Source of the DNA: Candidatus Omnitrophota bacterium
Lineage (GTDB): Bacteria > Omnitrophota > Gorgyraeia > Gygaellales > Profunditerraquicolaceae
Assembly (NCBI GenBank): GCA_030693145.1
Contig: JAUYBI010000049.1
Location: 7,305 to 71,304 of the forward strand
Direction: 5' to 3'
DNA: 64,000 nucleotides
This document shows, one piece after another, positions 24,444 to 39,169 of the stretch. A program made the translations under genes and the position numbers. The notes beneath the pieces were generated by a model, which made no database searches, was not told the DNA's origin, and worked only from the letters and a program-made list of their open reading frames with translations. Numbering within the stretch: position 1 is the first letter of the stretch; each line of letters begins with the position of its first letter.

Positions 24444-24515
24444 GAGATTCCTCGTATTTTTATCTTTTCTTTTTGGGGAATCTGTGTACAATATAACAAA
24501 AGCTTAAAATAATAT

Positions 24516-24531
24516 TTAGCCGAGATAGCTC
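24516..24531 (+). repeat. duplicated 5' fragment of tRNA-Phe (TTAGCCGAGATAGCTC)
   Basis: 16-nt exact copy of the tRNA-Phe 5' end 56 bp upstream of the gene, followed by hairpin TCCGCCACAAAGCGTGGCGGA. Confidence 0.6.
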
Positions 24532-24573
24532 TCCGCCACAAAGCGTGGCGGATTCGCTAAGACATAAAAGTTA

Positions 24574-24645
24574 GCCGAGATAGCTCAGTGGTAGAGCGCG
24601 GCCCTGAAAAGGCCGGCGTGGGGGGTCCGATTCCCTCTCTCGGCA
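24574..24645 (+). tRNA. tRNA-Phe (GAA)
   Basis: Cloverleaf: acceptor GCCGAGA/TCTCGGC, D-arm GCTCAGTGGTAGAGC, anticodon stem CGGCC/GGCCG, loop CTGAAAA (anticodon GAA), T-arm; discriminator A. Confidence 0.85.
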
Positions 24646-25473: not shown

Positions 25474-26565
25474 ATGAAACAGCCTTATGTACCACAGCTG
25501 CTACCGTTAGAATCAGTGGATTGGGTTAGGTTTATTACCTTAATTGGCCAAGCAAATGCTGAGCTGGCGCGATATGACGGTATATTGCAAGGCATCATTA
25601 ATCCGAGAGTCCTTTTGTCTCCATTGACTACTAATGAAGCTGTTATTTCTTCTAAAATTGAAGGAACGCAGGCTTCTTTGGAAGAGGTTTTGAAATACGA
25701 AGCTTCGCCGGATGTAAAAACTGAGAAATATGATGATATTAGGGAAATTATTAATTACCGAGAAGCAATGCGTTTCGCGATTCAATGGATGAAAGAAAAA
25801 CCTATAACGTTAAACCTAATTAAACAAATGCACGGCATGCTTCTTGACAGCGTTAGAGGTAAAGATAGAAGTCGCGGGAGTTTTAGGACTAGCCAGAATT
25901 ATATTGGTAGGTTTGGCTCTACTATTGAACAAGCAAGCTATGTTCCGCCTGAACCAGCGATTCTTATGGAGCATCTTTCAAATTTTGAGAAATATATCCA
26001 TTATGATGAAAAAGATCGCTTGGTACAATTGGCTATTATTCATGCGCAATTTGAAATAATTCATCCTTTTTTAGATGGCAATGGCAGATTAGGTAGAATC
26101 TTAATACCGCTCTTTCTTTATGAAAAGAAAGTGCTTAATTCTCCGATGTTTTATATAAGTGAATATCTTGAGAGTAATCGCGAAGAATATTACGCAAAAC
26201 TGAGGGCAATATCTGAAGATAAAAAATGGGATGACTGGATTGAATTTTTCCTTCGGGCGATCGTCGCGCAAGCAAAGGCCAATAGCGTTAAAGCAAAAGC
26301 GATACTCGAGTTATATGAAATTAAAAAACACAAACTTTCAGAGCTGACGCACTCTCAATATGTCATAAAAGTTCTAGATACGATGTTTGCGCGCCCGCTT
26401 TTTTCAACAACAGATTTTATTAAAATTTCAAAGATACCTAAAGAAAGCGCTATTAGGCTTTTACGACTACTTAAGAAAGAAAAGATACTGACTACGCTTC
26501 GGGAGGGTAAAGGAAGAAGCCCGGAGATACTCATATTTAATAAGCTTTTCGATATTGTGCAATAA
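25474..26565 (+). CDS. Fic family protein (AMPylase/adenylyltransferase-type) with C-terminal wHTH
   Basis: Canonical Fic motif HPFLDGNGRLGRIL (HPFx[D/E]GNGR), 363 aa. Confidence 0.85.
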   Translation: MKQPYVPQLLPLESVDWVRFITLIGQANAELARYDGILQGIINPRVLLSPLTTNEAVISSKIEGTQASLEEVLKYEASPDVKTEKYDDIREIINYREAMRFAIQWMKEKPITLNLIKQMHGMLLDSVRGKDRSRGSFRTSQNYIGRFGSTIEQASYVPPEPAILMEHLSNFEKYIHYDEKDRLVQLAIIHAQFEIIHPFLDGNGRLGRILIPLFLYEKKVLNSPMFYISEYLESNREEYYAKLRAISEDKKWDDWIEFFLRAIVAQAKANSVKAKAILELYEIKKHKLSELTHSQYVIKVLDTMFARPLFSTTDFIKISKIPKESAIRLLRLLKKEKILTTLREGKGRSPEILIFNKLFDIVQ

Positions 26566-26665
26566 TCTTGTGTGTAATAAATGATGCGCTATATAGTTTG
26601 TGTGTCAAAAAATAGATAAAATGACACACAAGTCATTTTGTGTGTAATATATGACACGCAGTAAA
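26566..26665. promoter_or_regulatory. cluster of TGTGTGT(A/C)A / T(G/T)ACACACA repeats upstream of hsdM (operator candidate)
   Basis: TTGTGTGTAATAAATGA (26567), inverted pair TGTGTGTCA-N13-TGACACACA (26599-26631), TTGTGTGTAATATATGA (26638). Confidence 0.45.
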
Positions 26666-26742
26666 ATCTTGTAATAAGACTATTAAGCAATATTCGCTAT
26701 ATAAAGATTCGAGGATTGATACTTGAAGTAAAGGAGATTAGA

Positions 26743-28749
26743 GTGACGATTAATTTTAAAGAGAGTGCAAGTTTTATTTGGAGCATGGCCGAACTTTTGC
26801 GCGGAGACTATAAGCAGTCTGAATACGGCCGGGTGATATTACCGCTTACGGTTTTGCGACGTCTGGATTGTGTGCTTGAGCCAACTAAGGAAGCAGTGTT
26901 GTCATATTTGCCACAAACTAAAGGATTATCGCCAGAAGCCGCCGAGACGGTACTTAAGAAAAAAGCGAAGTTATCTTTTTACAGTAAGAGCAAGTTTGAT
27001 TTTCAGAAACTGGTTGCTGATCCCAATGACATAGCCGCTAACCTAAGAAATTATATCAACGGTTTTTCTAAGAACGCCCGCAGTATTCTGGAACATTTTA
27101 ATTTTAATGATCATATCGAGCGGCTTGATAAATCGAATCTTTTGTATATGATCGTCAAGCGTTTTGCCGAAGTTGATCTGCATCCAGACAAGATTCAAAA
27201 CATTGAGATGGGCTATATCTTTGAAGAGCTTATTCGCAAGTTCGCCGACCTTTCCAATGAAACAGCCGGAGAACACTTTACGCCACGCGAAGTTATCCGG
27301 CTTATGGTCAATATTCTCTTTCTGAACGATAAAGATGTTCTTACTAAAAAAGGTATCGTAAAAACTCTATACGATCCTGCATGTGGAACTGGAGGTATGC
27401 TCTCTGTAGCTGAAGAATATCTTCGTGAACTTAACCCCGGTGCAGATTTACGCGTATTCGGTCAGGAGTTAAATCCTGAGTCTTATGCTATTTGTAATTC
27501 TGACATGCTCATTAAGGGGCAGAATACGGAGCATATTAAGTTTGGCAATTCCTTCACGCAAGATGGACTTAAAGACGAAAAGTTTGACTATATGCTGAGC
27601 AATCCTCCCTTTGGTGTGGAGTGGAAAAAGATTGAGGAGGAAATTACCAAGGAATACGAGAAGTTGGGTTTTTCTGGGCGTTTTGGCGCTGGACTTCCGC
27701 GTATCAGTGACGGCTCTTTTCTATTCTTACAGCACATGATTTCTAAGATGCGACCGGAGAATGGTGGCGCGCGGCTAGGGATAGTTTTCAACGGTTCACC
27801 TCTTTTTTCGGGTGGGGCCGTAAGTGGTGAAAGTGAAATCCGTAAATGGATTATTGAAAATGATATGCTCGAAGCGATTATTGCGATGCCGGATCAACTT
27901 TTCTATAACACCGGCATTTCGACTTACATTTGGATTGTTACGAATCGTAAAGAGAAGGAACGCAAAGACAAGATTCAGTTTATCAACGCGGTTGAGTCTT
28001 TTAGTAAAATGCCCCGTAGCCTTGGGAATAAACGAAATGAAATTAGTGATGAGCATATTACTGAAATTACCAAGATTTACGGAGAATTTAAGGAGTGTGA
28101 ATACTGCAAAATATTTCCTAACGAATATTTTGGCTATACGCGCGTAACAGTGGAAAGGTCGCTTCGGCTTAATTTTCAGGTTTTAAAGGAACGGATTGAG
28201 CGGCTTGATGAGCAGCCAGGACTAATTAATCTGGCTAAATCCAAGAAGAAAGGCAAAGAAGGATTAAGGGAAATCGAGGAAGGCGAAAAACTGAAAAAAG
28301 ATATCAAGGTGATGTTATTAACTTTCGATTCTAAGCTTTATAGGAACCGTGAGAAGTTTATTGAGGTTATCGAGCAAGTTGCAGAAAAATCAAGGCTTGA
28401 GATTAAAGCGCCTGTGATGAAGGCGATCCTTGAAGCTCTATCCGAGCGAGATGGAACGGCAGATATCTGTATGGATAAAGACGGGAATCCGGAGCCGGAT
28501 ACTGATCTGCGGGATTATGAAAACATTCCACTTATGGATAATATTGAGGATTATTTCAAGCGCGAAGTTTTGCCTCATGTGTCTGACGCGTGGATGGACA
28601 GGAGCAAAGATAAAGTCGGCTATGAGATAAATTTTACCAAGGAGTTTTATAAATACAAACCGCTAAGATCACTGAAAGAGATTCGCAATGATATCCTCGC
28701 ATTGGAAAAAGAAACCGAAGGGCTAATGGGGGAGGTTTTGAAAGACTAA
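26743..28749 (+). CDS. hsdM: type I restriction-modification system methyltransferase subunit HsdM
   Basis: HsdM N-terminal domain (FIWSMAELLRGDYKQSEYGRVILPLTVLRRLD), motif I DPACGTGGML, motif IV NPPF; GTG start 26743 after AAGGAG RBS. Confidence 0.9.
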   Translation: MTINFKESASFIWSMAELLRGDYKQSEYGRVILPLTVLRRLDCVLEPTKEAVLSYLPQTKGLSPEAAETVLKKKAKLSFYSKSKFDFQKLVADPNDIAANLRNYINGFSKNARSILEHFNFNDHIERLDKSNLLYMIVKRFAEVDLHPDKIQNIEMGYIFEELIRKFADLSNETAGEHFTPREVIRLMVNILFLNDKDVLTKKGIVKTLYDPACGTGGMLSVAEEYLRELNPGADLRVFGQELNPESYAICNSDMLIKGQNTEHIKFGNSFTQDGLKDEKFDYMLSNPPFGVEWKKIEEEITKEYEKLGFSGRFGAGLPRISDGSFLFLQHMISKMRPENGGARLGIVFNGSPLFSGGAVSGESEIRKWIIENDMLEAIIAMPDQLFYNTGISTYIWIVTNRKEKERKDKIQFINAVESFSKMPRSLGNKRNEISDEHITEITKIYGEFKECEYCKIFPNEYFGYTRVTVERSLRLNFQVLKERIERLDEQPGLINLAKSKKKGKEGLREIEEGEKLKKDIKVMLLTFDSKLYRNREKFIEVIEQVAEKSRLEIKAPVMKAILEALSERDGTADICMDKDGNPEPDTDLRDYENIPLMDNIEDYFKREVLPHVSDAWMDRSKDKVGYEINFTKEFYKYKPLRSLKEIRNDILALEKETEGLMGEVLKD

Positions 28750-28750
28750 A

Positions 28751-29215
28751 ATGCTCATTCTTGTAAAAAGTTATCTGTGTCTATTTAATAAAAATTGGTT
28801 TTTGGATGAATTGGTAAACGTTGATTTTAAGAGAGAATTACTTTCGAATTCTGGATTGCGAGAAGCTAATGAACAACATAAGAATGAAGCTAAAGATCGT
28901 CTGCGTCGCGATACAATAGAACGAAGAAAACTGCTTTATCAGAAAATGATACTTTCATTAGGCTGGATTTTGTTGGCAGCAGTCTCGGGATTGTTAATAT
29001 CGGTGTTCGGCTTCCATAGACAAATTTTTTATGAGAATAAATATGTCGGATTGTTATCTATATTTTGTTTTTCTTGGGCAACGCTTGCTCGCTTAGGATG
29101 GCAAGGGCAAACGTGTGCAGGAGATACTATTTTTGAGAAACTTGATGAAAATATTTTCTGGGTTTTGTATTTTTTTGGCACCCTATTTGGTGCTTTTTCA
29201 ATAATTGCGTCTTGA
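28751..29215 (+). CDS. small 3-TM membrane protein embedded between hsdM and hsdS
   Basis: 154 aa; charged N-terminal ~65 aa then three hydrophobic helices; starts 2 nt after hsdM stop. Confidence 0.5.
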   Translation: MLILVKSYLCLFNKNWFLDELVNVDFKRELLSNSGLREANEQHKNEAKDRLRRDTIERRKLLYQKMILSLGWILLAAVSGLLISVFGFHRQIFYENKYVGLLSIFCFSWATLARLGWQGQTCAGDTIFEKLDENIFWVLYFFGTLFGAFSIIAS

Positions 29216-29219
29216 TTAT

Positions 29220-30530
29220 ATGAAATATTATCCGGCATATAAAGATTCTAAAATTGAGTGGTTTCCTTCGATTCCTAAGCATTGGCAGCTTATTAAGCTA
29301 GGAAGAATAGGCCGTTTTTCTGCCAGCGGTATTGATAAGAAAAGCGATGCAAGCGAACTTCCCGTTAGGATGGTAAATTATACAAATGTTTATGGTAATT
29401 CTAGTTTAGAGATTAAGTTTTCGGAAAATTTAATGGAAACGACAACAACGTTAGAAAAAGTTAGGGAGCATAGTTTAAAAAAAGGAGACATGGTGTTTAC
29501 TCCAAGTTCTGAAACAGCCGAAGATATTGGTTTATCGGCTGTGGTTACAGCAGAGCTTCGTAATACTGTTTATAGCTATCATTTGATTCGTCTAAGGACT
29601 GGTGAGCGTTATAATCTGAATTTAGGGTTTAAGAAATATTTTTGCAATGTTCATGAAGTTTTGAGTCAATTTAGCAAAGCGTGTAAGGGAACGACGCGGC
29701 AAATCTTAGGTCGAGATGATTTTAAAGATATATTAATTCTGCTCCCACCAGTAAGCGAACAGAAAATAATTGCTGAGTATCTTAATCGCAAGGCCGCGCA
29801 GGTTGATGACTTGATTGCCAAAAAAGAGCGGATGATTGATCTTATCAAGGAGGAGCGGGCGGCGATCACCAATCGAGCAGTAACTAAAGGGCTTGATCCC
29901 AATGTCGAGATGAAAGATTCTGGCATTGAGTGGTTAGGCAAAATGCCGAAGCATTGGCAGATGAAAAGATTGAAATATTTAGTGTCCTTAGTTAATCAGC
30001 CGATTGAAGAGGTTAATGGAGCGGAACTGCGTATTGACTTAGAAAATCTTGAAAGCTGGACTGGAAAAACAATTGAGCTTGAGAGCCAAGATCAAAACAA
30101 CGAAGGAATGAAAAGTTTTGCTCCAGGGGACGTGTTGTTCAATAAATTGCGGCCATATCTTGCCAAAGTATATCGAGCAAAAAATTGTGGTGTTTGCGGC
30201 GGGGAACTCTTGGTTCTGCGTCCGACCACATTGATCGATCCGGATTTTCTTTTCTGTAGAGTCCTTTCAAGTGCTTTTATAAATGTGGTTGATGGTTCGA
30301 CCTACGGATCTAAAATGCCGAGGGCAAGTTGGGATTTTATTGGGAATCTCATTGTTCCATTTCCGAGCAAACCCGAACAAATTAAGATCGCAGAATACCT
30401 GCATCAGACCTTACAGAGAATGGATATAATTTTACAGAAATTGGGTTCGGAAATTGAATATTTAAGAGAATACCGCACCGCTTTGATTTCAGAAGTGGTA
30501 ACGGGAAAGATTGATGTGAGGGGGTTTTAG
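29220..30530 (+). CDS. hsdS: type I restriction-modification system specificity subunit HsdS
   Basis: Two target-recognition domains separated by conserved central/distal repeats (LPPVSEQKIIAEYLNRK ... PFPSKPEQIKIAEYLHQ). Confidence 0.85.
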   Translation: MKYYPAYKDSKIEWFPSIPKHWQLIKLGRIGRFSASGIDKKSDASELPVRMVNYTNVYGNSSLEIKFSENLMETTTTLEKVREHSLKKGDMVFTPSSETAEDIGLSAVVTAELRNTVYSYHLIRLRTGERYNLNLGFKKYFCNVHEVLSQFSKACKGTTRQILGRDDFKDILILLPPVSEQKIIAEYLNRKAAQVDDLIAKKERMIDLIKEERAAITNRAVTKGLDPNVEMKDSGIEWLGKMPKHWQMKRLKYLVSLVNQPIEEVNGAELRIDLENLESWTGKTIELESQDQNNEGMKSFAPGDVLFNKLRPYLAKVYRAKNCGVCGGELLVLRPTTLIDPDFLFCRVLSSAFINVVDGSTYGSKMPRASWDFIGNLIVPFPSKPEQIKIAEYLHQTLQRMDIILQKLGSEIEYLREYRTALISEVVTGKIDVRGF

Positions 30531-30532
30531 TC

Positions 30533-31507
30533 ATGAAAGATATAGTTAAGTCATTAAGAAATTCAGTATTTACAACATTTTTTTACATCTTGCTTGATTA
30601 TTATAAGAAACAACGTTCATGGTTTGATTATCTAATCATTTTTTTGATATTGAGTACAACTCTATTATTAGTTTCTTTAACTTGGAACGTAATTAAACAA
30701 TGGTATCTAGACTGGAGAAGAAAACACTTTCCTCGCGTGGGAATACTTAATGGGTCTATTAAATCTCGAACTGTCGAGCATCCATGCAGAAGACAGTGGA
30801 GTGAGATGACGCCGAGCATGTGGTTTGAACAATTAAAAAGGGATTTCAAGAAGCCCTTACTTAGCGAATTGATTCTAATACCAACGTCAGAAATTGACAA
30901 TTCTTGGAGTATAGTTATTAATCCGTTCGGAGAAAACTATCCCGAAGAAAATCCGCGTTTACTAAAAACTTTTAAAGAGATCTGTGAGTATATTAATAAA
31001 GGAGGAATATTTGTAGTAACTGGTAGCGCATTCTTTTATAATCAAAATACCTTTGCTACACCCCAGTCCGAGAGAGTAATAACGCATGTTATTGAAGGTG
31101 TGCAGTATCTTGAATATTCTGTTCTCACTCAAGAGTTTGGAGTTAAATATACAGGTAATATACATGATATTCAGAATAAAAAGGTGCTTTTTGAAGAACC
31201 GGTTGAGATAAATGTTACTCAAACGAGCGACATGGTTAAGATGTGGGGAGATTTATTGCAAGGGATTAACCATTTGAAGAGATTTAGGGCAGCTACTAGC
31301 GAAACTATCGATTATCTTCCTGTTATTATACAGGAAGGTGAGGATCAGTGGAATAAAGGCAAAAAAATATTTCCCATAGCTTTAATTCGATATGGCAAGG
31401 GGGCTTTGATACATGCAGGGTTGCACATACATTCATATAGTTGTGATGAATTTTTAGTTTTGAAGCGTTTAATCTTGAAATTGGCGAAGAATAAGTTTAC
31501 ATTCTGA
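30533..31507 (+). CDS. hypothetical protein with N-terminal TM helix, embedded between hsdS and hsdR
   Basis: 324 aa; TM LIIFLILSTTLLLVSLTW then ~270-aa soluble domain with no motif I can assign. Confidence 0.5.
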   Translation: MKDIVKSLRNSVFTTFFYILLDYYKKQRSWFDYLIIFLILSTTLLLVSLTWNVIKQWYLDWRRKHFPRVGILNGSIKSRTVEHPCRRQWSEMTPSMWFEQLKRDFKKPLLSELILIPTSEIDNSWSIVINPFGENYPEENPRLLKTFKEICEYINKGGIFVVTGSAFFYNQNTFATPQSERVITHVIEGVQYLEYSVLTQEFGVKYTGNIHDIQNKKVLFEEPVEINVTQTSDMVKMWGDLLQGINHLKRFRAATSETIDYLPVIIQEGEDQWNKGKKIFPIALIRYGKGALIHAGLHIHSYSCDEFLVLKRLILKLAKNKFTF

Positions 31508-31530
31508 TAATATAAATTAGGAGTTGCAAG

Positions 31531-34500
31531 GTGGGTATAACTAACGAAAAAGCTTTTGAAGACGCTATCGAACAAAGTTTGATGGATCCTGGCGGATATG
31601 TAAAAGGCGATCCGAATAATTTTAATCGGGATCTGGCGATTGATCAAATGGTTTTGTTTCAGTTTATCAAGGATACCCAGAAGAATGTTTGGGATAGCTT
31701 GGTGGCTATCCATGGCGCAGAGGTCGAGAAAAAGTTTTTATATCGCCTTAATCAAGAGCTGGATGCGCGCGGGATGCTTGATTGTTTGCGCCACGGATTC
31801 ACTGATTATGGCAAGAAATTCACACTCGCCTATTTTAAGCCAGTCAGCAAATTAAACCCGGAAACCCAAAAGTTATTCGATAGAAATATCCTCACCGTTA
31901 CCCGGCAGGTTCATTACAGCATCAAGGATGAAAGCTCGATTGATATGCTTTTGTCTGTCAACGGCCTTCCTGTGGCTACTATTGAATTAAAAAATCCATT
32001 TACCGGTCAGGATGTGGATGACGCCAAACGGCAATATAAATATGACCGCGACGAACGTGAGCTTTTATTTCAGTTTAAGAAGCGTGCCTTTGTCCATTTT
32101 GCTGTAGATACAGACGTCATTTACATGACCACGCGCCTTCAGGGGAGCAAGACAAAGTATCTGCCTTTCAATAAGGGCTATAACAAAGGTGCCGGGAATC
32201 CCCCGAATTCAAGCGGCCATAAGACATCGTATTTATGGGAAGCGGTCTTGGTAAAAGACAGCTGGATGGATATCTTAGGAAGATTTTTGCTTTTAGAAGT
32301 TGAGGAAAAGACGTTTGATGGTAGAAAGTTCAAGATTGAGACAATGATATTTCCACGTTATCACCAACTTGATAGCGTCCGGAAGCTTTCTTCCGATGCT
32401 CTCGCAAATGGAGCAGGAAAGAATTATTTAATTCAACATAGCGCTGGGAGTGGCAAGAGCAATTCTATCGCATGGCTTGCATATCATTTGGCTAGTCTTC
32501 ATGACAAAAACGATAAGAGGTTATTTGATTCGGTGATTGTGATCACCGATCGTATCGTTCTTGATAAACAATTACAAGATACGATTTATCAATTTGAACA
32601 TAAGTCTGGAGTGGTTGAAAAAATTGACAAAGATTCCGCCCAGCTGGCTCAGGCACTCACCAGTGGAACAAATATTATTATCACTACACTTCAAAAGTTT
32701 CCTTTTGTTTTGGATAAGGTTGGGGCACTGCCTAAGCGAAATTACGCGGTTATCGTAGATGAGGCGCATAGTTCGCAGGGTGGCGAATCCGCTAAAAAGA
32801 TGAAAGACGTTCTTTCGGCGGTTGATAAAATCGAGATCGTATCCGAGAAAATCGATGAGGATGACGATATAGAAGATGAAATCCGTGAATCTATGCTTAA
32901 ACGTGGCCCCCGGACGAATTTAAGTTTCTTTGGTTTTACGGCAACCCCAAAAGCAAAAACGCTGGAGTTTTTCGGGCAAAAGGGCATAGATGGAAAACCA
33001 CAACCATTTCATCTTTATTCTATGAGGCAGGCGATCGAAGAAAGATTTATTTTTGATGTTCTTGAAAACTACACCAGCTATCAAACTTTTTTCCAGTTAT
33101 CCAAGAAGATTGAAGACGATCCGAATATGAATAAGAAAAAGGCCGCTTGTGCGATCGCGCGTTTTTTAACACTACACCCCTATAACTTGGCACAGAAAAC
33201 CGAAGTCATGATTGAGCACTTCCGGCAGATCACTTTGAAAAAGATTGGCGGTAAGGCCAAGGCGATGGTCGTGACCGCTTCTCGCGAACACGTGGTGCGA
33301 TATAAACATGAGTTTGATCGGTATTTGAAAGAGAAAGGCTATAAAGATATCAAAGCTCTTGTGGCCTTTTCGGGTACAGTGCTTTTGGATGGTATTCCTC
33401 CGGAATATACCGAACCGGGAATGAATGGTTTTGGCGAAAAAGAACTGCCCCAAAAGTTTGCTACATCCGAATATCAGATTTTGCTTGTTGCGGAAAAGTA
33501 TCAGACCGGCTACGACGAGCCACTTTTACATACCATGTATGTGGACAAGCGGCTTGACGGCGTCAAGGCTGTGCAGACCATGAGCCGGTTAAATAGAACG
33601 TGTCCGGGGAAGGAAGATACTTTCATTTTGGACTTCGTTAATAAGCGCGAAGATATATTAGCGGCGTTTCAGCCGTATTACGAGCAGACACAGTTAAGCG
33701 ATGTTACGGATCCAAATAAGCTTTATGATCTCAAGACCAAACTGGATTCGTTTAAGGTGGTTTATCAATCAGATATCGATGCATTCTGTGCCGTATTTTT
33801 CAGGAATAAAGAATTACAGACGAAGCGCGAGCATGCTCAATTGAATTCAATAGTGGATGTGGCGGTTGAGCGGTTCAAGGCAATTGAAAAAGATGAGCAT
33901 AAAGAAGATTTTGCCAATACGCTGGGTGTTTTTGTTCGCTTGTACGCGTTTTTGGCGCAGATTATGCCATTTCAAGATATTGAACTTGAGAAATTCTATG
34001 CTTATTCCCGACTATTGTTGAAAAAACTTCCGGGGCCTGATGGTGGAGAAAGATATCATTTTGGTGATGAAGTCGCTCTTGAGTATTACCGCTTGCAAAA
34101 AATAGTTGATGGTAAGATTCAATTGCAAAAGGATTCAGGTGCGGCCATTGATCCTATTTCAGAAGCTGGGACGAAGAAGGATAAAGAAGAATACGCTTAC
34201 TTGTCAGAGATAATAAAGTTTTTAAATGACCGGTTTGGAACTGATTTTACCGAAGCTGACAAGCTATTTTTTGATCAGATAGAAGAAGAGATGGTTATGG
34301 ATGAGAAGTTGGGTGTTCAGGCTAAGGCTAACACAATTGATAATTTTAAATATGGATTTGATGACGTTTTTATTGCAAAACTCGTTGAGCGAATGGACCA
34401 GAATCAGGATATTTTTAACAAAATTATGGATGATAAAGTTTTTGCGGCAGTGGTGAAGGATTATTTATTAAAGAAGGTTTATGATCGTTTAAATAAAGAT

Positions 34501-35016
34501 AATAGTGGTTCGGCGGAAGGCATTTTATTTTTTAAGGATGTGATTACGAATGGAGATATTGATGATAATCGTAAATACATAAATTTTCTGCCGGTGTATT
34601 CCTTGCAGGCAGTAGCGACGTCTTTTAAAGAACAATCAACTCCTGAAGTTATTGGTTGGAAACCGATTAGCGGTCGGAAGATCAGCAAAGAAATGTTTAT
34701 TGCACAGGTAATAGGTAAATCTATGGAGCCGACTATTTCGGACGGGAGCTGGTGTTTATTTCGGTTTGAACGCGGAGGATCTCGTAATGGATTAGTGGTG
34801 CTTGTTGAGTCGCGTTTGGTTGCTGATCCTGAAACCAATCAAAAATTTACAATTAAACGTTACAAGAGTGAAAAGGAAGATCTTGGTAACGGTCAGTGGA
34901 GGCACAAAAAAATTATTTTATCCCCTGACAATAAAGATTTTAAGGATATTGTTCTTGAAAATATATCTGGGGAAGATTTTCGAGTTGTGGCAGAGTTTAT
35001 AGAAGCTTTTAAATAA
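31531..35016 (+). CDS. hsdR: type I restriction enzyme endonuclease subunit HsdR with C-terminal S24 (LexA-like) peptidase domain
   Basis: N-terminal PD-(D/E)XK nuclease (VATIELKNP), SF2 helicase motifs (QHSAGSGKS Walker A, VIVDEAHSS DEAH box, YQTGYDEP), then C-terminal ~130 aa with GKSMEPTISDGSWCLF ... FTIKRYK matching the S24 Ser/Lys dyad context (GDSMEPTI.DGD ... VKRL in LexA). Confidence 0.8.
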   Translation: MGITNEKAFEDAIEQSLMDPGGYVKGDPNNFNRDLAIDQMVLFQFIKDTQKNVWDSLVAIHGAEVEKKFLYRLNQELDARGMLDCLRHGFTDYGKKFTLAYFKPVSKLNPETQKLFDRNILTVTRQVHYSIKDESSIDMLLSVNGLPVATIELKNPFTGQDVDDAKRQYKYDRDERELLFQFKKRAFVHFAVDTDVIYMTTRLQGSKTKYLPFNKGYNKGAGNPPNSSGHKTSYLWEAVLVKDSWMDILGRFLLLEVEEKTFDGRKFKIETMIFPRYHQLDSVRKLSSDALANGAGKNYLIQHSAGSGKSNSIAWLAYHLASLHDKNDKRLFDSVIVITDRIVLDKQLQDTIYQFEHKSGVVEKIDKDSAQLAQALTSGTNIIITTLQKFPFVLDKVGALPKRNYAVIVDEAHSSQGGESAKKMKDVLSAVDKIEIVSEKIDEDDDIEDEIRESMLKRGPRTNLSFFGFTATPKAKTLEFFGQKGIDGKPQPFHLYSMRQAIEERFIFDVLENYTSYQTFFQLSKKIEDDPNMNKKKAACAIARFLTLHPYNLAQKTEVMIEHFRQITLKKIGGKAKAMVVTASREHVVRYKHEFDRYLKEKGYKDIKALVAFSGTVLLDGIPPEYTEPGMNGFGEKELPQKFATSEYQILLVAEKYQTGYDEPLLHTMYVDKRLDGVKAVQTMSRLNRTCPGKEDTFILDFVNKREDILAAFQPYYEQTQLSDVTDPNKLYDLKTKLDSFKVVYQSDIDAFCAVFFRNKELQTKREHAQLNSIVDVAVERFKAIEKDEHKEDFANTLGVFVRLYAFLAQIMPFQDIELEKFYAYSRLLLKKLPGPDGGERYHFGDEVALEYYRLQKIVDGKIQLQKDSGAAIDPISEAGTKKDKEEYAYLSEIIKFLNDRFGTDFTEADKLFFDQIEEEMVMDEKLGVQAKANTIDNFKYGFDDVFIAKLVERMDQNQDIFNKIMDDKVFAAVVKDYLLKKVYDRLNKDNSGSAEGILFFKDVITNGDIDDNRKYINFLPVYSLQAVATSFKEQSTPEVIGWKPISGRKISKEMFIAQVIGKSMEPTISDGSWCLFRFERGGSRNGLVVLVESRLVADPETNQKFTIKRYKSEKEDLGNGQWRHKKIILSPDNKDFKDIVLENISGEDFRVVAEFIEAFK

Positions 35017-35115
35017 TAATGAATAATCGTTTCTAATTTTTTTAAAAAACAGTGAAGTAAAGGGAAAACAATTTCTAGTTTCTACAGGTGTGCGAAGGAT
35101 TAAACAGGAGGAGAA

Positions 35116-36273
35116 ATGGCAGATATAAAAAGAGAGTATGAAGGAGATCATGAAGTAGAAGAAGAATATTTGGTTCTTGAATATGATATTACAGCTTCGC
35201 CAAATGATTTTAATATAAAAACCATATTTGATTTTATAGAATCTGGAGCTGTTATCATACCGGAATTTCAAAGGAATTATGTATGGGATATTAGGCGAGG
35301 ATCAAAATTTATCGAATCCCTTATTATGAACTTGCCTGTACCGCAAATTTTTCTCTATGAATCAGGGAGAAATAAATTCAAAGTTATTGATGGACAGCAA
35401 AGATTAATGACAATTTATTATTTTATGAAAAAGAGGTTCCCTTGGAAAGAAAAAAGAATGGAGCTGCGGCGTATCTTTGATAAAGCAGGGAAAATTCCTC
35501 CTGAGGTGTTAGCTGATGATAAATTCTTTTCAGATTTTAACCTCAAATTAGAAAGTAGCGTTGAGGGAGTGACTAGTAGATTAAATGGTTTGAACTATGA
35601 TACGCTCAAGGATTACAAAACCTCTTTTGACCTACGTACTATTAGGAATATTATTGTTAAACAAACTAAGCCAGAAGATGATGATTCTTCTATGTATGAA
35701 ATATTTACAAGATTAAACTCTGGTGGGATTAATTTAACTCCTCAAGAAATTCGTGCGTGTATGTTTCATTCTGATTTCTATGATACATTACATAAAGTTA
35801 ATTTAGATGAGCGTTGGAGAAAAATAATTGGCTCGAAAGATCCAGATCTTCATTTAAAGGATGTAGAGATCCTATTAAGGAGTTATGCTGCGTTAATAAA
35901 AGGAGAAAACTATGCTCCTCCCATGACAAAGTTTCTTAATACATTTTCAAAAGAACGTGAAAAGGAAACTCGTAAAAGCTTAGATTATTACGAAAAATTA
36001 TTTTATTCATTTTTGGATTATTGTTCAGAACTTCGAGAAAAATCTTTCTTTGGTAAAACTGGAAAGTTTAATATTTCTCTTTTTGAAGCTGTTTTCTATG
36101 CAATTTGCGAAAAATCTTATAAAAAGCATTCTTTAGTTGAGGGGAAGATCGAGGCAATAAAATTAAATAGATTAAAAAGAGACAAACAGTTTACGGGTGC
36201 TTCTCAAATGCGTTTATCAAGTAAACAAAATGTCGCTATTCGCCTTGATCGCGCAAGGAAGATTATATTATAA
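35116..36273 (+). CDS. DUF262 (ParB/Srx-like nuclease domain) protein
   Basis: PEFQRNYVW and KVIDGQQRLMTIYYF (DGQQR) motifs diagnostic of DUF262. Confidence 0.8.
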   Translation: MADIKREYEGDHEVEEEYLVLEYDITASPNDFNIKTIFDFIESGAVIIPEFQRNYVWDIRRGSKFIESLIMNLPVPQIFLYESGRNKFKVIDGQQRLMTIYYFMKKRFPWKEKRMELRRIFDKAGKIPPEVLADDKFFSDFNLKLESSVEGVTSRLNGLNYDTLKDYKTSFDLRTIRNIIVKQTKPEDDDSSMYEIFTRLNSGGINLTPQEIRACMFHSDFYDTLHKVNLDERWRKIIGSKDPDLHLKDVEILLRSYAALIKGENYAPPMTKFLNTFSKEREKETRKSLDYYEKLFYSFLDYCSELREKSFFGKTGKFNISLFEAVFYAICEKSYKKHSLVEGKIEAIKLNRLKRDKQFTGASQMRLSSKQNVAIRLDRARKIIL

Positions 36274-36282
36274 AATTTTCAT

Positions 36283-36798
36283 ATGGACAATTCCCCAATT
36301 GATAAGTTATATTTTGAAACTAAGTCGATATTGGATTTTCTTGAAAGAAATAATGAATTATCATTTAAAAGTGATATTGATAATATGTTTAAAAGATATT
36401 TATTATTGGTTTCAGGAGGTTATTTTGAAGAATGCATAACGAATATTTTACTGAATCTTGTATCTAAAAACGTAGATAACAAACTTATCATTGAATTTTT
36501 AAAGAATAAAGGTATTAAAAGACAATACCATACTTATTTTGATTGGGAATCTATTAATGCAAATCAATTCTTTAGTTTGTTTGGGGAAGAATTCAAGGAA
36601 AAGATGAGTCAAGAAGTTAATAATAAAGAAACATTGAAGGTTTCGATAAAAGATTTTATACAAATAGGGCATGCTAGGAATTTACTTGCTCATAAAAATG
36701 CTACTTTAGTTAATCTAGATAAGACTTCGGAAGAAACATATGCTCAATACAAGAGTGCAGAGGAGTTTATTAGTTTTCTTCAAGAGCAACTTTTATAA
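36283..36798 (+). CDS. HEPN-domain protein (Abi/RiboL-PSP-like)
   Basis: 171 aa alpha-helical; C-terminal GHARNLLAHKN = R-[N]-x3-H HEPN catalytic motif. Confidence 0.55.
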   Translation: MDNSPIDKLYFETKSILDFLERNNELSFKSDIDNMFKRYLLLVSGGYFEECITNILLNLVSKNVDNKLIIEFLKNKGIKRQYHTYFDWESINANQFFSLFGEEFKEKMSQEVNNKETLKVSIKDFIQIGHARNLLAHKNATLVNLDKTSEETYAQYKSAEEFISFLQEQLL

Positions 36799-36823
36799 AT
36801 TTTAAATTTAACAAAAATAATGC

Positions 36824-36852
36824 TTGACAGATGTAATTACATATGGTAACAT
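36824..36852 (+). promoter_or_regulatory. promoter TTGACA-17-TAACAT overlapping palindromic operator TGTAATTACA
   Basis: TTGACA 36824-36829, TAACAT 36847-36852, perfect 10-bp palindrome 36832-36841 in the spacer; upstream of XRE gene. Confidence 0.55.
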
Positions 36853-36878
36853 GGGACTAAGCTAAGATAAGGGGAAAG

Positions 36879-37073
36879 ATGACGACGATTGATAGGCAAA
36901 AATTCGCGAGAGCAATTAAGAGGTATAGAGAAGAGAAGGATCTTACTCAGAAGGAATTAGCGGGTAAGTTGATGACTACAACTACAACAGTTGCGCGGTG
37001 GGAATTGGGGATGAGCGTGCCGAAACAAGACAGGGTGATTCAGGAGATAAAGGCATTAGGTATTAACTGGTAA
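36879..37073 (+). CDS. XRE-family HTH transcriptional regulator
   Basis: 64 aa; LTQKELAGKLMTTTTTVARWELG HTH_3 pattern. Confidence 0.75.
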   Translation: MTTIDRQKFARAIKRYREEKDLTQKELAGKLMTTTTTVARWELGMSVPKQDRVIQEIKALGINW

Positions 37074-37099
37074 ATTTTTTTGTCCTTTGAGATTACAAG

Positions 37100-37109
37100 T
37101 GTAATTACA
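37100..37109. promoter_or_regulatory. second copy of TGTAATTACA palindromic operator
   Basis: Identical 10-bp palindrome between XRE gene and xis-like gene. Confidence 0.5.
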
Positions 37110-37135
37110 TACGATATAAGGAAAGGAGTGGCGAC

Positions 37136-37315
37136 ATGGATAGATTATTAACGCCGGAGGAAGTTTGTCAGAGGTATAGCATTAAAAAGAATACGTTTTA
37201 TCAGTGGACTTCAAAAAATTTAATACCATACCTCAAAAGAGGCGGCTTACGTTTTAAGGCGGATGAGCTTGAGAAATGGGAGAGCGGAGAGGTAAACAAT
37301 GTTAAATTAATATGA
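37136..37315 (+). CDS. excisionase-family DNA-binding protein (Xis/AlpA-like)
   Basis: 59 aa (below ORF-track cutoff): MDRLLTPEEVCQRYSIKKNTFYQWTSKNLIPYLKRGGLRFKADELEKWESG; RBS AAGGAAAGGAG; stop overlaps integrase ATG (ATGA). Confidence 0.65.
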   Translation: MDRLLTPEEVCQRYSIKKNTFYQWTSKNLIPYLKRGGLRFKADELEKWESGEVNNVKLI

Positions 37316-38505
37316 CCTATCGTTTAAGGCAATTTAACCTTAAGAGCGTTGTTAAGCGGGGTAAATTTTTTGAGATCCGCTATACTAACCCTCGTACCCA
37401 AAAAAGGGAATATTATAAGTTAGGCATAACACATGATGAAGTAAAAAGGAACCTGCCTGAATTTAATAGAATGTACGCCGGCCTTAAAAGGCAGGTTTTT
37501 TCTTATAGGATTACTGTCAGTCAAGGTGTGCAATCGTGGCTTGAGCAAAAAAGAACTGAATTAAGTAATAAGAAAACCGTGGTTCGGTATGAAGAAATTA
37601 TGAATAATTTCGCGGAATTTCTTAAAGATAAATTCCCGGCTTTAGGATATATGGATGAATTAGCGCAAAAACACTTTGAGGAGTTTAAAGAATACCGCAA
37701 AAATATTAAAGGGAAAAAGGAGAGGACGGTCAATTTTGAATTAGATATGTTAAGTAACTTATTCAAACGTTTGATGGAAAAAGATTATCTTAATTATAAT
37801 CCTTTATCGAAAGTTAAGAGATTGCAGGAACCATATAAAGAAGAGCGTTGGTTTACTGAAGAGGAGATTCGGAAAATTTTTGAAATAGCCAAAAGTGAGA
37901 AAACAAAGATAAATTGGTATGTTATATTCGCTACCTATTATTATACAGGTATGCGTAAAAGGGAATTGATGTCTCTCAGGAAGAAAGATATTGATTTTGA
38001 CAAAGGAATTATACTTATTCGGCACAAAGAGGGGTTTAAGCCGAAAACAGATAGGCCGAGGGCGATTCCTATTCATCCGGAGTTGGTGTCGATTTTGAGA
38101 TTGCTTCGGCCCTTCGGGCCTCGCAATGACACTGGGGACAGTGTTTGCAATGACGAGGGGAAAGTCGTGTCTTGTAATAACCAGGGAGACGGAGATTTTG
38201 TATTTGTTAATTCAAGGGGTAAGCCGTTTTCTAACGACGCGATAAGGCAGAAGTTAAAGAAGTTGTGCCGCAAGGCAGAGATAAAGCCCGGTAAGTTACA
38301 TAGCTTTAGGCATACTTGGACCGCTCATTCTATTATGAAAGGCTGTCCTTCAGATGTGGTTCAGGCGATCGGCGGCTGGAAAGAAAAAGATATGATTGAA
38401 AGATACAAGCACCTTGCGCCGGATTATATGGCTGATATTTATAAGAAAACAATTTTTTTAGGCAGCCAGGCTGAAGATAAAGGCTCTTTAAAGGCTCAAG
38501 ATTAA
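37312..38505 (+). CDS. tyrosine-type site-specific recombinase/integrase
   Basis: N-terminal SAM-like domain, C-terminal catalytic R...HSFRHTWTAH...GGW...RYKHL (R-H-R-Y) motifs. Confidence 0.85.
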   Translation: MTYRLRQFNLKSVVKRGKFFEIRYTNPRTQKREYYKLGITHDEVKRNLPEFNRMYAGLKRQVFSYRITVSQGVQSWLEQKRTELSNKKTVVRYEEIMNNFAEFLKDKFPALGYMDELAQKHFEEFKEYRKNIKGKKERTVNFELDMLSNLFKRLMEKDYLNYNPLSKVKRLQEPYKEERWFTEEEIRKIFEIAKSEKTKINWYVIFATYYYTGMRKRELMSLRKKDIDFDKGIILIRHKEGFKPKTDRPRAIPIHPELVSILRLLRPFGPRNDTGDSVCNDEGKVVSCNNQGDGDFVFVNSRGKPFSNDAIRQKLKKLCRKAEIKPGKLHSFRHTWTAHSIMKGCPSDVVQAIGGWKEKDMIERYKHLAPDYMADIYKKTIFLGSQAEDKGSLKAQD

Positions 38506-38847: not shown

Positions 38848-39096
38848 TTTGTTTCACCTCCTCTTAAGATAAAAAAAAATCCGCAAAGCATGGTTATTTT
38901 TTGTTGCTGCTTTGCGGTTTATACGTGTTACTAATCAATTTCTTTGTTTCTCCTCTAGACTGATCTTATGTAATAAATATATCATGAATTGTCAATTTGT
39001 CAACCCTTTTTCCAATTCTAAGCGAGTAATTGACTATTATCCAGGAATTGGTATAATGTTGAAAAATTGCCGAGTAAGATATTATTGCCGATGTAG

Positions 39097-39169
39097 CTCA
39101 GTTGGTAGAGCAGGACTTTCGTAAAGTCAAGGTCGGTGGTTCGATTCCACTCATCGGCTTAAGTTTAGT
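39097..39169 (+). tRNA. tRNA-Thr (CGU)
   Basis: Acceptor GCCGATG/CATCGGC, D-arm GCTCAGTTGGTAGAGC, anticodon loop TTCGTAA (CGT), T-loop TTCGATT, discriminator T. Confidence 0.75.

What the first reader, a model, noticed from the sequence alone, without database searches (positions are those of the whole stretch)
34600..35016. HsdR fused to a C-terminal LexA-type S24 serine peptidase domain
After a complete HsdR (nuclease, DEAH helicase, helical C-region) the last ~130 residues read GKSMEPTISDGSWCLF...NGLVVLVESR...FTIKRYK...KKIILSPDNKDFKDIVL. This matches the S24 autopeptidase fold of LexA/UmuD/lambda CI, with the Ser nucleophile (GxSMxPT) and the general-base Lys (KRY) both conserved. A self-cleaving module on the restriction subunit suggests RecA*- or stress-triggered auto-inactivation of HsdR, a built-in restriction-alleviation switch. 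It could alternatively recruit or cleave a partner. I am not aware of this being a described HsdR architecture.
Basis: partly seen in the sequence, partly recalled or inferred. Interest (0 to 1): 0.7.

Follow-up and report, generated by a model that had tools for sequence, protein, structure and literature searches.

The report
LexA-type self-cleaving cassette on HsdR
The restriction subunit of this Type I restriction-modification system ends in a complete LexA-like self-cleaving protease cassette; the same cassette sits on the C-termini of many other restriction enzymes in hundreds of mostly uncultured bacteria, and may link restriction to DNA-damage sensing, although no cleavage has been tested.

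Summary
ORF 31531..35016 (1161 aa) is an intact HsdR whose last ~173 aa form a Peptidase_S24 module. Pfam scores it at 35 bits against a 23.3-bit cut-off. The AF2 model (pLDDT 89.8) matches only LexA, lambda CI and UmuD. Ser1064 and Lys1109 align with LexA Ser119 and Lys156 and are invariant in all homologues examined.

New findings:
1. The module includes a LexA/UmuD-like cleavage-site strand 35 residues upstream of the Ser. Here the scissile pair is Ala1029-Thr1030, not the canonical Ala-Gly or Cys-Gly found in most of the wider subfamily.
2. The module is a portable cassette. It is at the extreme C-terminus of two HsdR families, Type III Res-like, Type ISP and Type IIG enzymes, DUF2075 helicases and small nucleases. 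It occurs in at least 548 species genomes.
3. It has been gained or lost at least 10 times within this one HsdR family.
4. Public annotation often calls only the tail as 'S24 family peptidase'.

No paper in the searched library describes this architecture.

Best model (inferred): DNA-damage-triggered self-cleavage detaches the cassette and exposes an Ala-rich C-terminal degron on HsdR. That would be a built-in restriction-alleviation switch. Both the direction of regulation and whether Ala-Thr is cleavable remain untested.

The parts
26716..28749 (+). hsdM, Type I methyltransferase subunit
   Evidence: Pfam HsdM_N + N6_Mtase. PADLOC MTase_I, E 1.5e-288.
29205..30530 (+). hsdS, specificity subunit
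   Evidence: Pfam Methylase_S, two stretches. PADLOC Specificity_I, E 1e-100.
31531..35016 (+). hsdR-S24 fusion ORF, 1161 aa, GTG start; end coordinate includes the stop codon
   Evidence: Continuous ORF. Domain content. Homologues with the same architecture at 64-92% identity.
31531..34494 (+). HsdR body, aa 1-988: PD-ExK nuclease, SF2 motor, helical C-region
   Evidence: HSDR_N, SWI2_SNF2/ResIII, T1R_D3-like. TIGR00348 match below its cut-off. Motifs D133..ExK154, GSGKS306, DEAH410, QTMSRLNR682. S24-less sister HsdRs end at '...KKVYxRLN', which is aa ~988 here.
34495..34584 (+). Tether between HsdR and the S24 cassette, aa 989-1018, containing the conserved 'LFFxDV' element
   Evidence: Absent from S24-less sisters. 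Present with the cassette on unrelated partner proteins. Variable in length and sequence.
34585..34659 (+). Cleavage-site region, aa 1019-1043: FLPVYSLQAVA|TSF ... GW
   Evidence: Aligns with UmuD FPLFSDLVQC|GF and LexA LPLVGRVAA|GEP. A1027, A1029, F1032, G1042 and W1043 are invariant in A1. Spacing to the Ser is 35 aa, as in LexA.
34615..34620 (+). Predicted scissile-bond equivalent, Ala1029-Thr1030 (codons GCG ACG)
   Evidence: Codons verified. Falls on UmuD Cys24-Gly25 in the MAFFT alignment. Among the top 150 subfamily representatives the pair is A|G in 80, C|G in 29, A|T in 16 and A|S in 5. Cleavage itself is not shown.
34633..35013 (+). S24 catalytic core, aa 1035-1161
   Evidence: PF00717 at aa 1035-1155. 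AF2 pLDDT 89.8. Foldseek hits to LexA, CI and UmuD.
34720..34722 (+). Ser1064 codon (TCT), predicted nucleophile in G-K-S-M
   Evidence: Aligns with LexA Ser119 and UmuD Ser60. Invariant in alignments A1, A2 and A3. Kept in 45 of 45 family members.
34855..34857 (+). Lys1109 codon (AAA), predicted general base in T-I-K-R-Y
   Evidence: Aligns with LexA Lys156 and UmuD Lys97. Invariant in A1, A2 and A3.
34810..34833 (+). Subfamily-specific insertion 1, aa ~1094-1101 (SRLVADPE), with invariant Asp1099
   Evidence: Gap in LexA and UmuD in the MAFFT alignment. Asp is invariant across 70 divergent representatives. Function unknown.
34879..34908 (+). Subfamily-specific insertion 2, aa ~1117-1126 (DLGNGQWRHK), a beta-hairpin extension with conserved W and H
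   Evidence: Gap in LexA and UmuD. W and H are nearly invariant. Strands 97-110 and 113-122 of the model. Function unknown. Boundaries are approximate.

Best explanation
The last ~173 residues of this HsdR are a complete LexA-type (MEROPS S24) autoproteolysis cassette. It consists of a flexible tether, a cleavage-site strand (…LPVYSLQAVA|TSF…) and a Ser1064/Lys1109 catalytic core. The cassette belongs to a distinct S24 subfamily found almost only as a C-terminal appendage of restriction and defence enzymes.

Proposed mechanism:
1. Resting state: the cassette is inert and HsdR restricts normally together with M2S.
2. Trigger: when DNA damage or self-restriction produces RecA-ssDNA filaments (or another activating state), the cleavage strand is pushed into the active site.
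3. Cleavage: the protein cuts itself between Ala1029 and Thr1030.
4. Consequence: the S24 core is severed. HsdR is left with a new Ala-rich C-terminus (…SLQAVA) that acts like the latent ClpX degron of LexA, so HsdR is degraded or loses S24-mediated pairing.
5. Outcome: a transient, post-translational restriction alleviation that protects unmodified host DNA during repair.

Shown here: domain identity, intact dyad, presence and spacing of the cleavage-site strand, portability of the cassette and its exclusive association with DNA-targeting defence enzymes. Inferred, not shown: that it cleaves at all, that RecA* is the trigger, and that cleavage switches the enzyme off.
For: Domain and dyad:
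- PF00717 above its cut-off.
- A profile search of the PDB hits only LexA, with Ser and Lys aligned.
- AF2 pLDDT 89.8; Foldseek matches LexA, CI and UmuD at probability 1.0.
- Ser and Lys are invariant in 12, 70 and 66-sequence alignments and in 45 of 45 S24-bearing members of this HsdR family, although the module is only 40-70% identical among them.

Cleavage site:
- A conserved A-x-A|[G/T/S]-x-F motif lies 35-38 aa before the Ser; LexA has 35 and UmuD 36.
- It is canonical A|G or C|G in 109 of the top 150 representatives.
- It aligns with UmuD C24|G25.

Regulatory add-on:
- Sister HsdRs up to 89% identical stop exactly where the tether starts.
- Presence or absence flips at least 10 times on the HsdR-body tree.

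Portability and guilt by association:
- The same cassette is at the extreme C-terminus of DUF3387-type HsdR, Type III Res-like, Type ISP, Eco57I/MmeI-type, AlwI, HNH, PLD, GIY-YIG, Mrr/TnsA-like nucleases, DUF2075 helicases and STAND NTPases.
- 54 of 56 complete ORFs are 400 aa or longer.
- Cassettes 70-81% identical to the query's sit on an unrelated HsdR family.
- No constant partner gene is present, which fits a self-contained switch.

Literature logic:
- LexA-like proteins carry embedded C-degrons next to the autocleavage site. Cleavage exposes them and sends the N-terminal fragment to ClpXP (PMC5742171).
- E. coli restriction alleviation works through ClpXP degradation of HsdR after DNA damage (PMC4231737 and PMC11109961; PMC12707154).
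Against: - In the query and in 43 of 45 members of its HsdR family the P1' residue is Thr, not Gly. Ala-Gly or Cys-Gly is treated as a defining S24 feature (PMC8565304). From my own recollection, LexA G85D is non-cleavable.
- Cleavage at the predicted site would leave an HsdR as long as functional S24-less homologues, so inactivation needs an extra, untested step.
- Some partners (STAND NTPases, minimal nuclease domains) fit an activation logic at least as well.
- Equivalents of the LexA pocket that accepts RecA F203 are only partly hydrophobic here. By the MAFFT mapping V79->Y, V82->Q, F111->F, L113->A, V146->L and V153->F (pocket residues from 10.1101/2023.10.30.564768). The register in the loop is uncertain by one residue.
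- Two conserved subfamily-specific insertions hint at a trigger or partner other than RecA*.
- There are no experimental data, and no RecA, LexA or ClpXP genes in the window (uninformative for 64 kb).
Confidence: 0.45

Rival explanations
1. Activation switch (pro-enzyme or abortive-infection logic). The S24 cassette keeps the fused nuclease or motor auto-inhibited or mislocalised. RecA* formed during phage replication or DNA damage triggers self-cleavage and releases a fully active enzyme.
For: The cassette also sits on STAND NTPases, PLD, HNH and GIY-YIG nucleases and on minimal Mrr- or PD-(D/E)xK-only proteins, whose unrestrained activity would be toxic. After cleavage the HsdR would resemble the S24-less, presumably active, homologues.
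Against: Most partners are classical modification-controlled restriction enzymes (Types I, III, ISP, IIG). These must act on incoming DNA at once and already discriminate self by methylation. Gating by RecA* would delay defence. Repeated loss and gain of the cassette among near-identical HsdRs suggests the enzyme works without it.
Confidence: 0.2
2. Non-cleaving module. In this Ala-Thr lineage the cassette no longer self-cleaves and instead serves as a dimerisation domain or as a RecA-filament docking domain. That would pair HsdR subunits, or recruit or sequester the enzyme at recombination intermediates.
For: The P1' Gly is replaced by Thr or Ser in the query's clade. LexA and UmuD C-terminal domains are dimerisation and RecA*-binding modules (structures 8trg and 8gms among the fold hits).
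Against: The Ser/Lys dyad and the G-x-S-M motif are strictly kept in 45 of 45 Ala-Thr-clade HsdRs, although the module is only 40-70% identical among them. Pure binding would not need that. Closely related cassettes with canonical A|G occur in the same enzyme classes.
Confidence: 0.2
3. Trans-acting peptidase. The S24 domain cleaves another protein, for example a phage anti-restriction protein, a phage CI-like repressor or a host factor, rather than its own tether.
For: The catalytic dyad is conserved. From my own recollection, S24 domains can cleave in trans (UmuD dimers, LexA C-terminal domain).
Against: A cleavage-site strand with canonical geometry and spacing is part of the cassette itself in nearly all members. 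No conserved neighbouring gene could be a substrate: the passenger genes differ between loci.
Confidence: 0.1
4. Artefact: an assembly chimera, a read-through of a lost stop codon, or a decaying remnant without function.
For: Public annotation often lists the tail as a separate 'S24 family peptidase' gene (P0179, P0155).
Against: The reading frame is continuous here and in L001. The fusion recurs in about 50 independent clusters of this HsdR family and in at least 548 species genomes. The separate 'genes' start at internal codons of one long ORF. Catalytic residues are invariant.
Confidence: 0.02

Closest known systems
LexA / UmuD / lambda CI C-terminal domains (MEROPS family S24, Pfam PF00717)
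   Same: Same fold. Same Ser/Lys dyad in the same motifs, G-x-S-M and T-[IV]-K-R. A cleavage-site strand lies 35-36 residues upstream of the Ser. The architecture is 'effector domain - tether with scissile bond - S24 core'.
   Different: The N-terminal partner is a 988-aa restriction helicase-nuclease rather than a DNA-binding HTH domain or the short UmuD arm. The scissile pair in this lineage is Ala-Thr rather than Ala-Gly or Cys-Gly. There are two subfamily-specific insertions with conserved Asp, Ser-x-Lys and Trp-x-His. Single-sequence searches do not reach LexA. Self-cleavage and RecA* dependence are untested.
ClpXP-dependent restriction alleviation of EcoKI-type (Type IA/IB) enzymes
   Same: The proposed outcome is the same: post-translational removal of HsdR activity when host DNA is at risk after DNA damage (PMC4231737, PMC11109961 and PMC12707154).
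   Different: In E. coli the signal is a stalled or long-lived translocating HsdR recognised by ClpXP, and HsdR has no built-in protease. Here the sensor and switch would be part of HsdR itself and would read a RecA*-type signal. Nothing is shown experimentally.
Latent C-degrons of LexA-like repressors (LexA 1-84 '...VAA', S. mutans IrvR and HdiR)
   Same: An Ala-rich sequence immediately precedes the scissile bond (…AAA|G, …AAC|G, here …AVA|T) and would become the C-terminus of the N-terminal fragment (PMC5742171).
   Different: The fragment that would be destabilised is an enzyme of about 115 kDa, not a small DNA-binding domain. Degron activity of '…SLQAVA' is untested.
S24-less HsdR orthologues of the same family (~1000 aa, e.g. 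P0031, 89% identical)
   Same: The same nuclease, motor and helical C-region, and the same M-S-R operon.
   Different: They end at '…KKVYxRLN(E/K)' and lack the tether and cassette.

Membership tests
Peptidase S24 (LexA/UmuD/CI-type autopeptidase) | S24 / LexA C-terminal-domain fold | tested here: met
   PF00717 at 35.3 bits against a 23.3-bit cut-off. AF2 pLDDT 89.8. Foldseek top 36 hits are LexA, CI and UmuD at probability 1.0.
Peptidase S24 (LexA/UmuD/CI-type autopeptidase) | Serine nucleophile in a G-x-S-M motif | tested here: met
   Ser1064 aligns with LexA Ser119 and UmuD Ser60. Invariant in A1, A2 and A3.
Peptidase S24 (LexA/UmuD/CI-type autopeptidase) | Lysine general base about 37-45 residues after the Ser | tested here: met
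   Lys1109 aligns with LexA Lys156 and UmuD Lys97. Invariant.
Peptidase S24 (LexA/UmuD/CI-type autopeptidase) | Scissile Ala-Gly (or Cys-Gly) bond about 35 residues upstream of the Ser | tested here: not met
   The position and flanking motif are conserved, but the pair is Ala1029-Thr1030 in the query and A|T in 43 of 45 members of its HsdR family. The wider cassette subfamily is mostly canonical: A|G in 80 and C|G in 29 of the top 150.
Peptidase S24 (LexA/UmuD/CI-type autopeptidase) | Self-cleavage in vitro at alkaline pH or stimulated by RecA* | not testable with these tools
   Requires biochemistry.
Peptidase S24 (LexA/UmuD/CI-type autopeptidase) | Hydrophobic pocket that accepts RecA F203 (LexA V79, V82, F111, L113, V146, V153) | tested here: inconclusive
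   The MAFFT mapping gives Y, Q, F, A, L and F, so it is partly conserved. The register in the cleavage loop is uncertain by one residue. Pocket definition from 10.1101/2023.10.30.564768.
Type I restriction enzyme R subunit (HsdR) | N-terminal PD-(D/E)xK nuclease, SF2 translocase motifs and HsdR domain 3 | tested here: met
   PF04313, PF18766, PF04851 and PF22679. Motifs D133..E152xK154, GSGKS306, DEAH410 and QTMSRLNR682. The TIGR00348 match scores 196.9, below its 284.55 cut-off, so this is a divergent subfamily. PADLOC REase_I, E 1e-35.
Type I restriction enzyme R subunit (HsdR) | Encoded with hsdM and hsdS | tested here: met
   hsdM at 26716-28749 and hsdS at 29205-30530, on the same strand upstream.
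Restriction-alleviation mechanisms | Loss of restriction after DNA damage that depends on the element in question | not testable with these tools
   Needs in vivo efficiency-of-plating assays before and after DNA damage, using S1064A, K1109A and recA or clpX backgrounds.

The most novel reading that the evidence does not exclude
A previously unrecognised, widespread layer of post-translational control of restriction. A portable LexA-type self-cleaving cassette is fused to Type I (two families), Type III, Type ISP and Type IIG enzymes, DUF2075 helicases and other defence nucleases in hundreds of species. It would wire these enzymes directly to the RecA*/SOS signal, or to a new trigger read by the subfamily-specific insertions. 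Each enzyme would then carry its own damage-sensing fuse.
Probability: 0.45. Interest if true: 0.85.

Novelty: new variant of a known kind. Interest (0 to 1): 0.66.

Why it matters
Restriction enzymes threaten their own host whenever unmodified sites appear, for example after repair, recombination or acquisition of a new system. The only well-understood safeguard is ClpXP-dependent restriction alleviation of EcoKI-type enzymes in E. coli. How other enzyme types and other phyla cope is largely unknown.

A self-contained LexA-like switch on the enzyme itself would give a direct physical link between the DNA-damage signal and restriction activity. It would extend the LexA/CI/UmuD autoproteolysis paradigm from transcription factors and polymerase subunits to large defence enzymes.

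It is directly testable with simple point mutants (S1064A, K1109A, T1030G). The cassette could also serve as a portable DNA-damage-responsive protein switch.

There is a practical consequence too. Genome annotation pipelines currently split or drop these fusions and label the tail 'S24 family peptidase', which hides the architecture from surveys.

Tried and rejected
- Single-sequence phmmer of the last 168 aa against PDB sequences found only a chance titin hit. A profile was needed.
- The first AF2 model, from 12 sequences, had only moderate confidence (pLDDT 63). It was replaced by a 66-sequence model.
- Lookup of P0179's contig failed. P0179 turned out to be the query's own aa 1022-1161, called from an internal GTG.
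- Apparent stand-alone S24 proteins were considered as a separate-gene version of the system. This was rejected: L001 holds a continuous 1199-aa HsdR-S24 ORF, and 54 of 56 complete ORFs are 400 aa or longer.
- The unknown ORFs inside the operon (154 aa and 324 aa) were considered as partners or substrates of the peptidase. This was rejected because related S24-bearing loci carry different passenger genes (DUF3800 plus unknowns), and an S24-less locus has none.
- A search for att-type direct repeats of the tRNA genes to delimit the island found nothing convincing.
- I tried to read the LexA cleavage-loop saturation mutagenesis paper to judge tolerance at P1'. It is not held.
- I tested co-variation between P1' identity (Gly versus Thr/Ser) and catalytic-domain columns. 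Many columns differ, which is a clade effect, so the test says nothing about cleavability.
- A motif scan of the window for RecA, LexA, ClpX and ClpP found none. This is uninformative for a 64-kb fragment.
- Six literature searches for prior descriptions, plus term look-ups in two R-M reviews, found none. The library lacks most subscription journals, so absence is not proof.
Full report

Yes. The window carries a continuous 1161-aa ORF at 31531..35016 on the + strand. Pfam assigns HSDR_N, SWI2_SNF2/ResIII/DEAD and T1R_D3-like to residues 116-702. It assigns Peptidase_S24 (PF00717) to residues 1035-1155. The S24 score is 29.5 bits in the whole protein and 35.3 bits (E 1e-8) when the last 168 aa are scanned alone, against a gathering cut-off of 23.3.

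The HsdR part looks functional. The PD-ExK motif (D133…E152-x-K154), Walker A (GSGKS at 306), DEAH (410) and motif VI (QTMSRLNR at 682) are all present. The gene follows hsdM (26716-28749) and hsdS (29205-30530) on the same strand.

GKSMEPT contains Ser1064 (nt 34720-34722) and FTIKRY contains Lys1109 (nt 34855-34857).

**2. Is it truly a LexA-type domain with the dyad in place?**

A single-sequence search of PDB sequences finds nothing. A 12-sequence profile of the C-terminal module hits only LexA chains. Its alignment places G-K-S-M on LexA G-M-S119-M and T-I-K-R on T-V-K156-R. MAFFT with E. coli LexA and UmuD gives Ser1064 = LexA Ser119 = UmuD Ser60 and Lys1109 = LexA Lys156 = UmuD Lys97.

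An AF2 model built on 66 homologues is confident (mean pLDDT 89.8, pTM 0.84). Foldseek against the PDB returns only LexA, lambda CI and UmuD at probability 1.0, with target-normalised TM up to 0.72. The S26 signal peptidases follow.

Ser and Lys are invariant in every alignment made: 12, 70 and 66 sequences. They are kept in all 45 S24-bearing members of this HsdR family, although the module is only 40-70% identical among them.

**3.

S24-less sister HsdRs, up to 89% identical over the shared part, stop at '…KKVYxRLN(E/K)'. That corresponds to residue ~988 here. The add-on therefore spans aa 989-1161 (nt 34495-35013).

It begins with a variable tether that contains a conserved LFFxDV element. 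A strongly conserved segment follows, F1019-LPVYSLQAVATSF-…-G1042-W1043. This segment parallels the cleavage-site regions of UmuD (FPLFSDLVQC|GF) and LexA (LPLVGRVAA|GEP). It lies 35 residues before the Ser, the same spacing as LexA Ala84 to Ser119.

Among the 150 best representatives of the wider subfamily the equivalent pair is Ala-Gly in 80, Cys-Gly in 29, Ala-Thr in 16 and Ala-Ser in 5. So the subfamily as a whole carries canonical LexA- or UmuD-type scissile bonds.

The query's own clade is the exception. Ala1029-Thr1030 (nt 34615-34620) occurs here, and A|T occurs in 43 of 45 members of its HsdR family. Ala-Gly or Cys-Gly is treated as a defining S24 feature (PMC8565304). Strictly, then, that membership feature is not met here, and cleavability of Ala-Thr is an open question. 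The subfamily also has two insertions relative to LexA and UmuD, on either side of the Lys strand. They carry invariant or nearly invariant Asp1099, Ser1113-x-Lys1115 and Trp/His residues of unknown role.

**4. The cassette is portable and tied to restriction and defence enzymes.**

A word-indexed search with the module profile found 1234 proteins. An exhaustive HMM search of 1.84 billion cluster representatives found 2099 at E ≤ 1e-3, 1365 at E ≤ 1e-10 and 361 at E ≤ 1e-30. The match is almost always at the extreme C-terminus of proteins up to 1878 aa.

Pfam on 70 long representatives shows these partners: ResIII (17), DUF2075/Schlafen-group-3 helicase (14), Type_ISP_C (11), Eco57I (6), MrfA Zn-binding (4), STAND NTPases (4), AlwI (3), HNH (3), RE_endonuc, MmeI methylase, PLD, GIY-YIG and TnsA-like nucleases.

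A scan of one genome per GTDB species confirmed at least 548 loci. They are mainly Omnitrophota, Planctomycetota, Elusimicrobiota, Bacillota, Nitrospirota and Acidobacteriota MAGs. Reading ORFs directly in the best 80 loci, 54 of 56 complete ORFs are 400 aa or longer. They fall into five classes, which Pfam identifies as follows:
- DUF2075 helicases, about 795 aa
- Type III Res-like enzymes, about 1050 aa
- two different HsdR families, 1150-1200 aa
- an Eco57I-like Type IIG enzyme, 1535 aa
- complete Type ISP enzymes, about 1775 aa

Cassettes 70-81% identical to the query's sit on the unrelated DUF3387-type HsdR. Within the query's own HsdR family they range from 49 to 78%. On an NJ tree of 112 HsdR bodies, presence of the cassette needs at least 10 state changes. 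The cassette is therefore shuffled among enzymes faster than it diverges. That is the behaviour of a self-contained functional module.

Gene neighbourhoods show no constant partner. Two S24-bearing loci carry DUF3800 plus unknown genes inside the operon. The window carries two other unknown ORFs. An 89%-identical S24-less locus is a compact M-S-R operon.

**5. Annotation artefact.**

Proteins that look like stand-alone 'S24 family peptidases' in public records are often the tails of these fusions. P0179 is exactly residues 1023-1161 of the query, preceded by Met at the internal GTG of Val1022 (nt 34594). P0155 is the last 177 aa of a continuous 1199-aa HsdR-S24 ORF in L001. This probably explains why the architecture has escaped notice.

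**6. Literature.**

Six full-text searches found no description of an S24 or LexA-like domain on HsdR or other restriction enzymes. The 2013 NAR review of Type I enzymes and the 2025 EcoSal Plus review of R-M biology contain no mention of peptidase or S24. The library lacks most subscription journals, so this is absence of evidence only.

**7. How it most likely works.**

By direct analogy with LexA, CI and UmuD, the architecture 'effector - tether with scissile bond - S24 core' predicts conformationally gated self-cleavage that separates the effector from the S24 core.

Cleavage at 1029|1030 would leave HsdR essentially as long as its functional S24-less relatives. The cut cannot by itself destroy the enzyme. 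Two literature-backed consequences could:
- LexA-like proteins carry embedded C-degrons immediately upstream of the scissile bond. Cleavage exposes them and sends the N-terminal fragment to ClpXP (PMC5742171, citing Neher 2003 and Niu 2010). Here the new C-terminus would be …SLQAVA, or …AAA / …AAC in other members.
- The S24 core is a dimerisation domain in LexA and CI, so cleavage could dissolve a required pairing.

ClpXP degradation of HsdR after DNA damage is exactly how E. coli achieves restriction alleviation (PMC4231737 and PMC11109961; PMC12707154). Most partners are modification-controlled, often ATP-dependent, translocating restriction enzymes for which unmodified host sites after repair are a hazard. 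I therefore favour an off-switch, that is, built-in restriction alleviation, with confidence about 0.45.

The rivals are:
- an activation (pro-enzyme) switch, 0.2, favoured by the STAND NTPase and minimal-nuclease partners
- a non-cleaving dimerisation or RecA*-docking role in this Ala-Thr clade, 0.2, disfavoured by the strict retention of the dyad
- a trans-acting peptidase, 0.1, disfavoured by the built-in cleavage strand and the lack of a conserved partner
- an artefact, about 0.02

The trigger need not be RecA*. RecA-independent LexA-like autocleavage is known (the abstract of PMC7101444, listed). The LexA pocket that accepts RecA F203 is only partly conserved in the mapping. The two conserved insertions are unexplained.

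**8. Verdict.**

The finding is larger than stated. It is one instance of a widespread and apparently undescribed family of restriction and defence enzymes carrying a LexA-type self-cleavage cassette. Both components are well known, so I rate it a new variant of a known kind. Interest is moderately high (0.66). An R-M or SOS specialist would be surprised, and the hypothesis is directly testable with three point mutants. Everything beyond domain identity and distribution is inference.

Noticed in passing
window 34594-35016; L001 4935-8534: Public annotation splits these fusions. NCBI protein P0179 ('S24 family peptidase', Candidatus Omnitrophota) is the query's aa 1023-1161, started at the internal GTG of Val1022. 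P0155 is the last 177 aa of a continuous 1199-aa DUF3387-type HsdR-S24 ORF, and the rest of that ORF has no called product.
   Followed up: yes
window 35116-36798: Directly downstream of hsdR-S24 lies a two-gene pair. The first is a DUF262/GmrSD_N protein (385 aa) that matches PADLOC NsnA (E 7e-60) and PD-T4-2_A. The second is a RiboL-PSP HEPN protein (171 aa) that matches PD-T4-2_B. This is likely a second defence system in the same island.
   Followed up: partly
window 28751-29215 and 30533-31507: Two ORFs with no Pfam, NCBIfam or PADLOC match are inserted in the Type I operon. A 154-aa protein with hydrophobic, TM-like segments lies between hsdM and hsdS. A 324-aa protein lies between hsdS and hsdR. 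Related loci carry different passenger genes at the same positions: an unknown 212-263 aa ORF, then DUF3800 plus an unknown ~185 aa ORF.
   Followed up: partly
window 24509-24645, 26000-38505, 39087-39159: The R-M and defence region has lower GC (0.32-0.39, against 0.42-0.45 in the flanks). It ends with an HTH gene (36879-37073) and a tyrosine integrase (37312-38505), and is bracketed by tRNA-Phe (24574-24645) and tRNA-Thr (39087-39159). A 23-nt near-copy of the tRNA-Phe 5' part lies at 24509-24531. This is probably an integrated island, but no clear att repeat was found.
   Followed up: partly
P0121 (287 aa): A protein with two S24 units in tandem. The N-terminal copy has Ser->Ala (VVGNALYP) and Lys->Arg (TIRRL) and is presumably inactive. 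It is followed by an intact cassette with an AAA|T site.
   Followed up: no
L085 4956-7426 (Halomonas sp. PA16-9, NZ_CP040452): This is the only cultured-organism hit in the plasmid collection. A DUF2075-type helicase ORF (686 aa) is followed by the S24 cassette (IAA|G site) in an overlapping, shifted frame. It is either a real frameshift or pseudogene, or a sequencing error. The record carries essentially no annotation.
   Followed up: partly
window 34810-34833 and ~34879-34908: There are two insertions specific to this S24 subfamily, absent from LexA and UmuD. They carry invariant or nearly invariant Asp1099, Ser1113-x-Lys1115 and Trp/His residues. They could form an extra binding or sensing surface. 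Their function is unknown.
   Followed up: no
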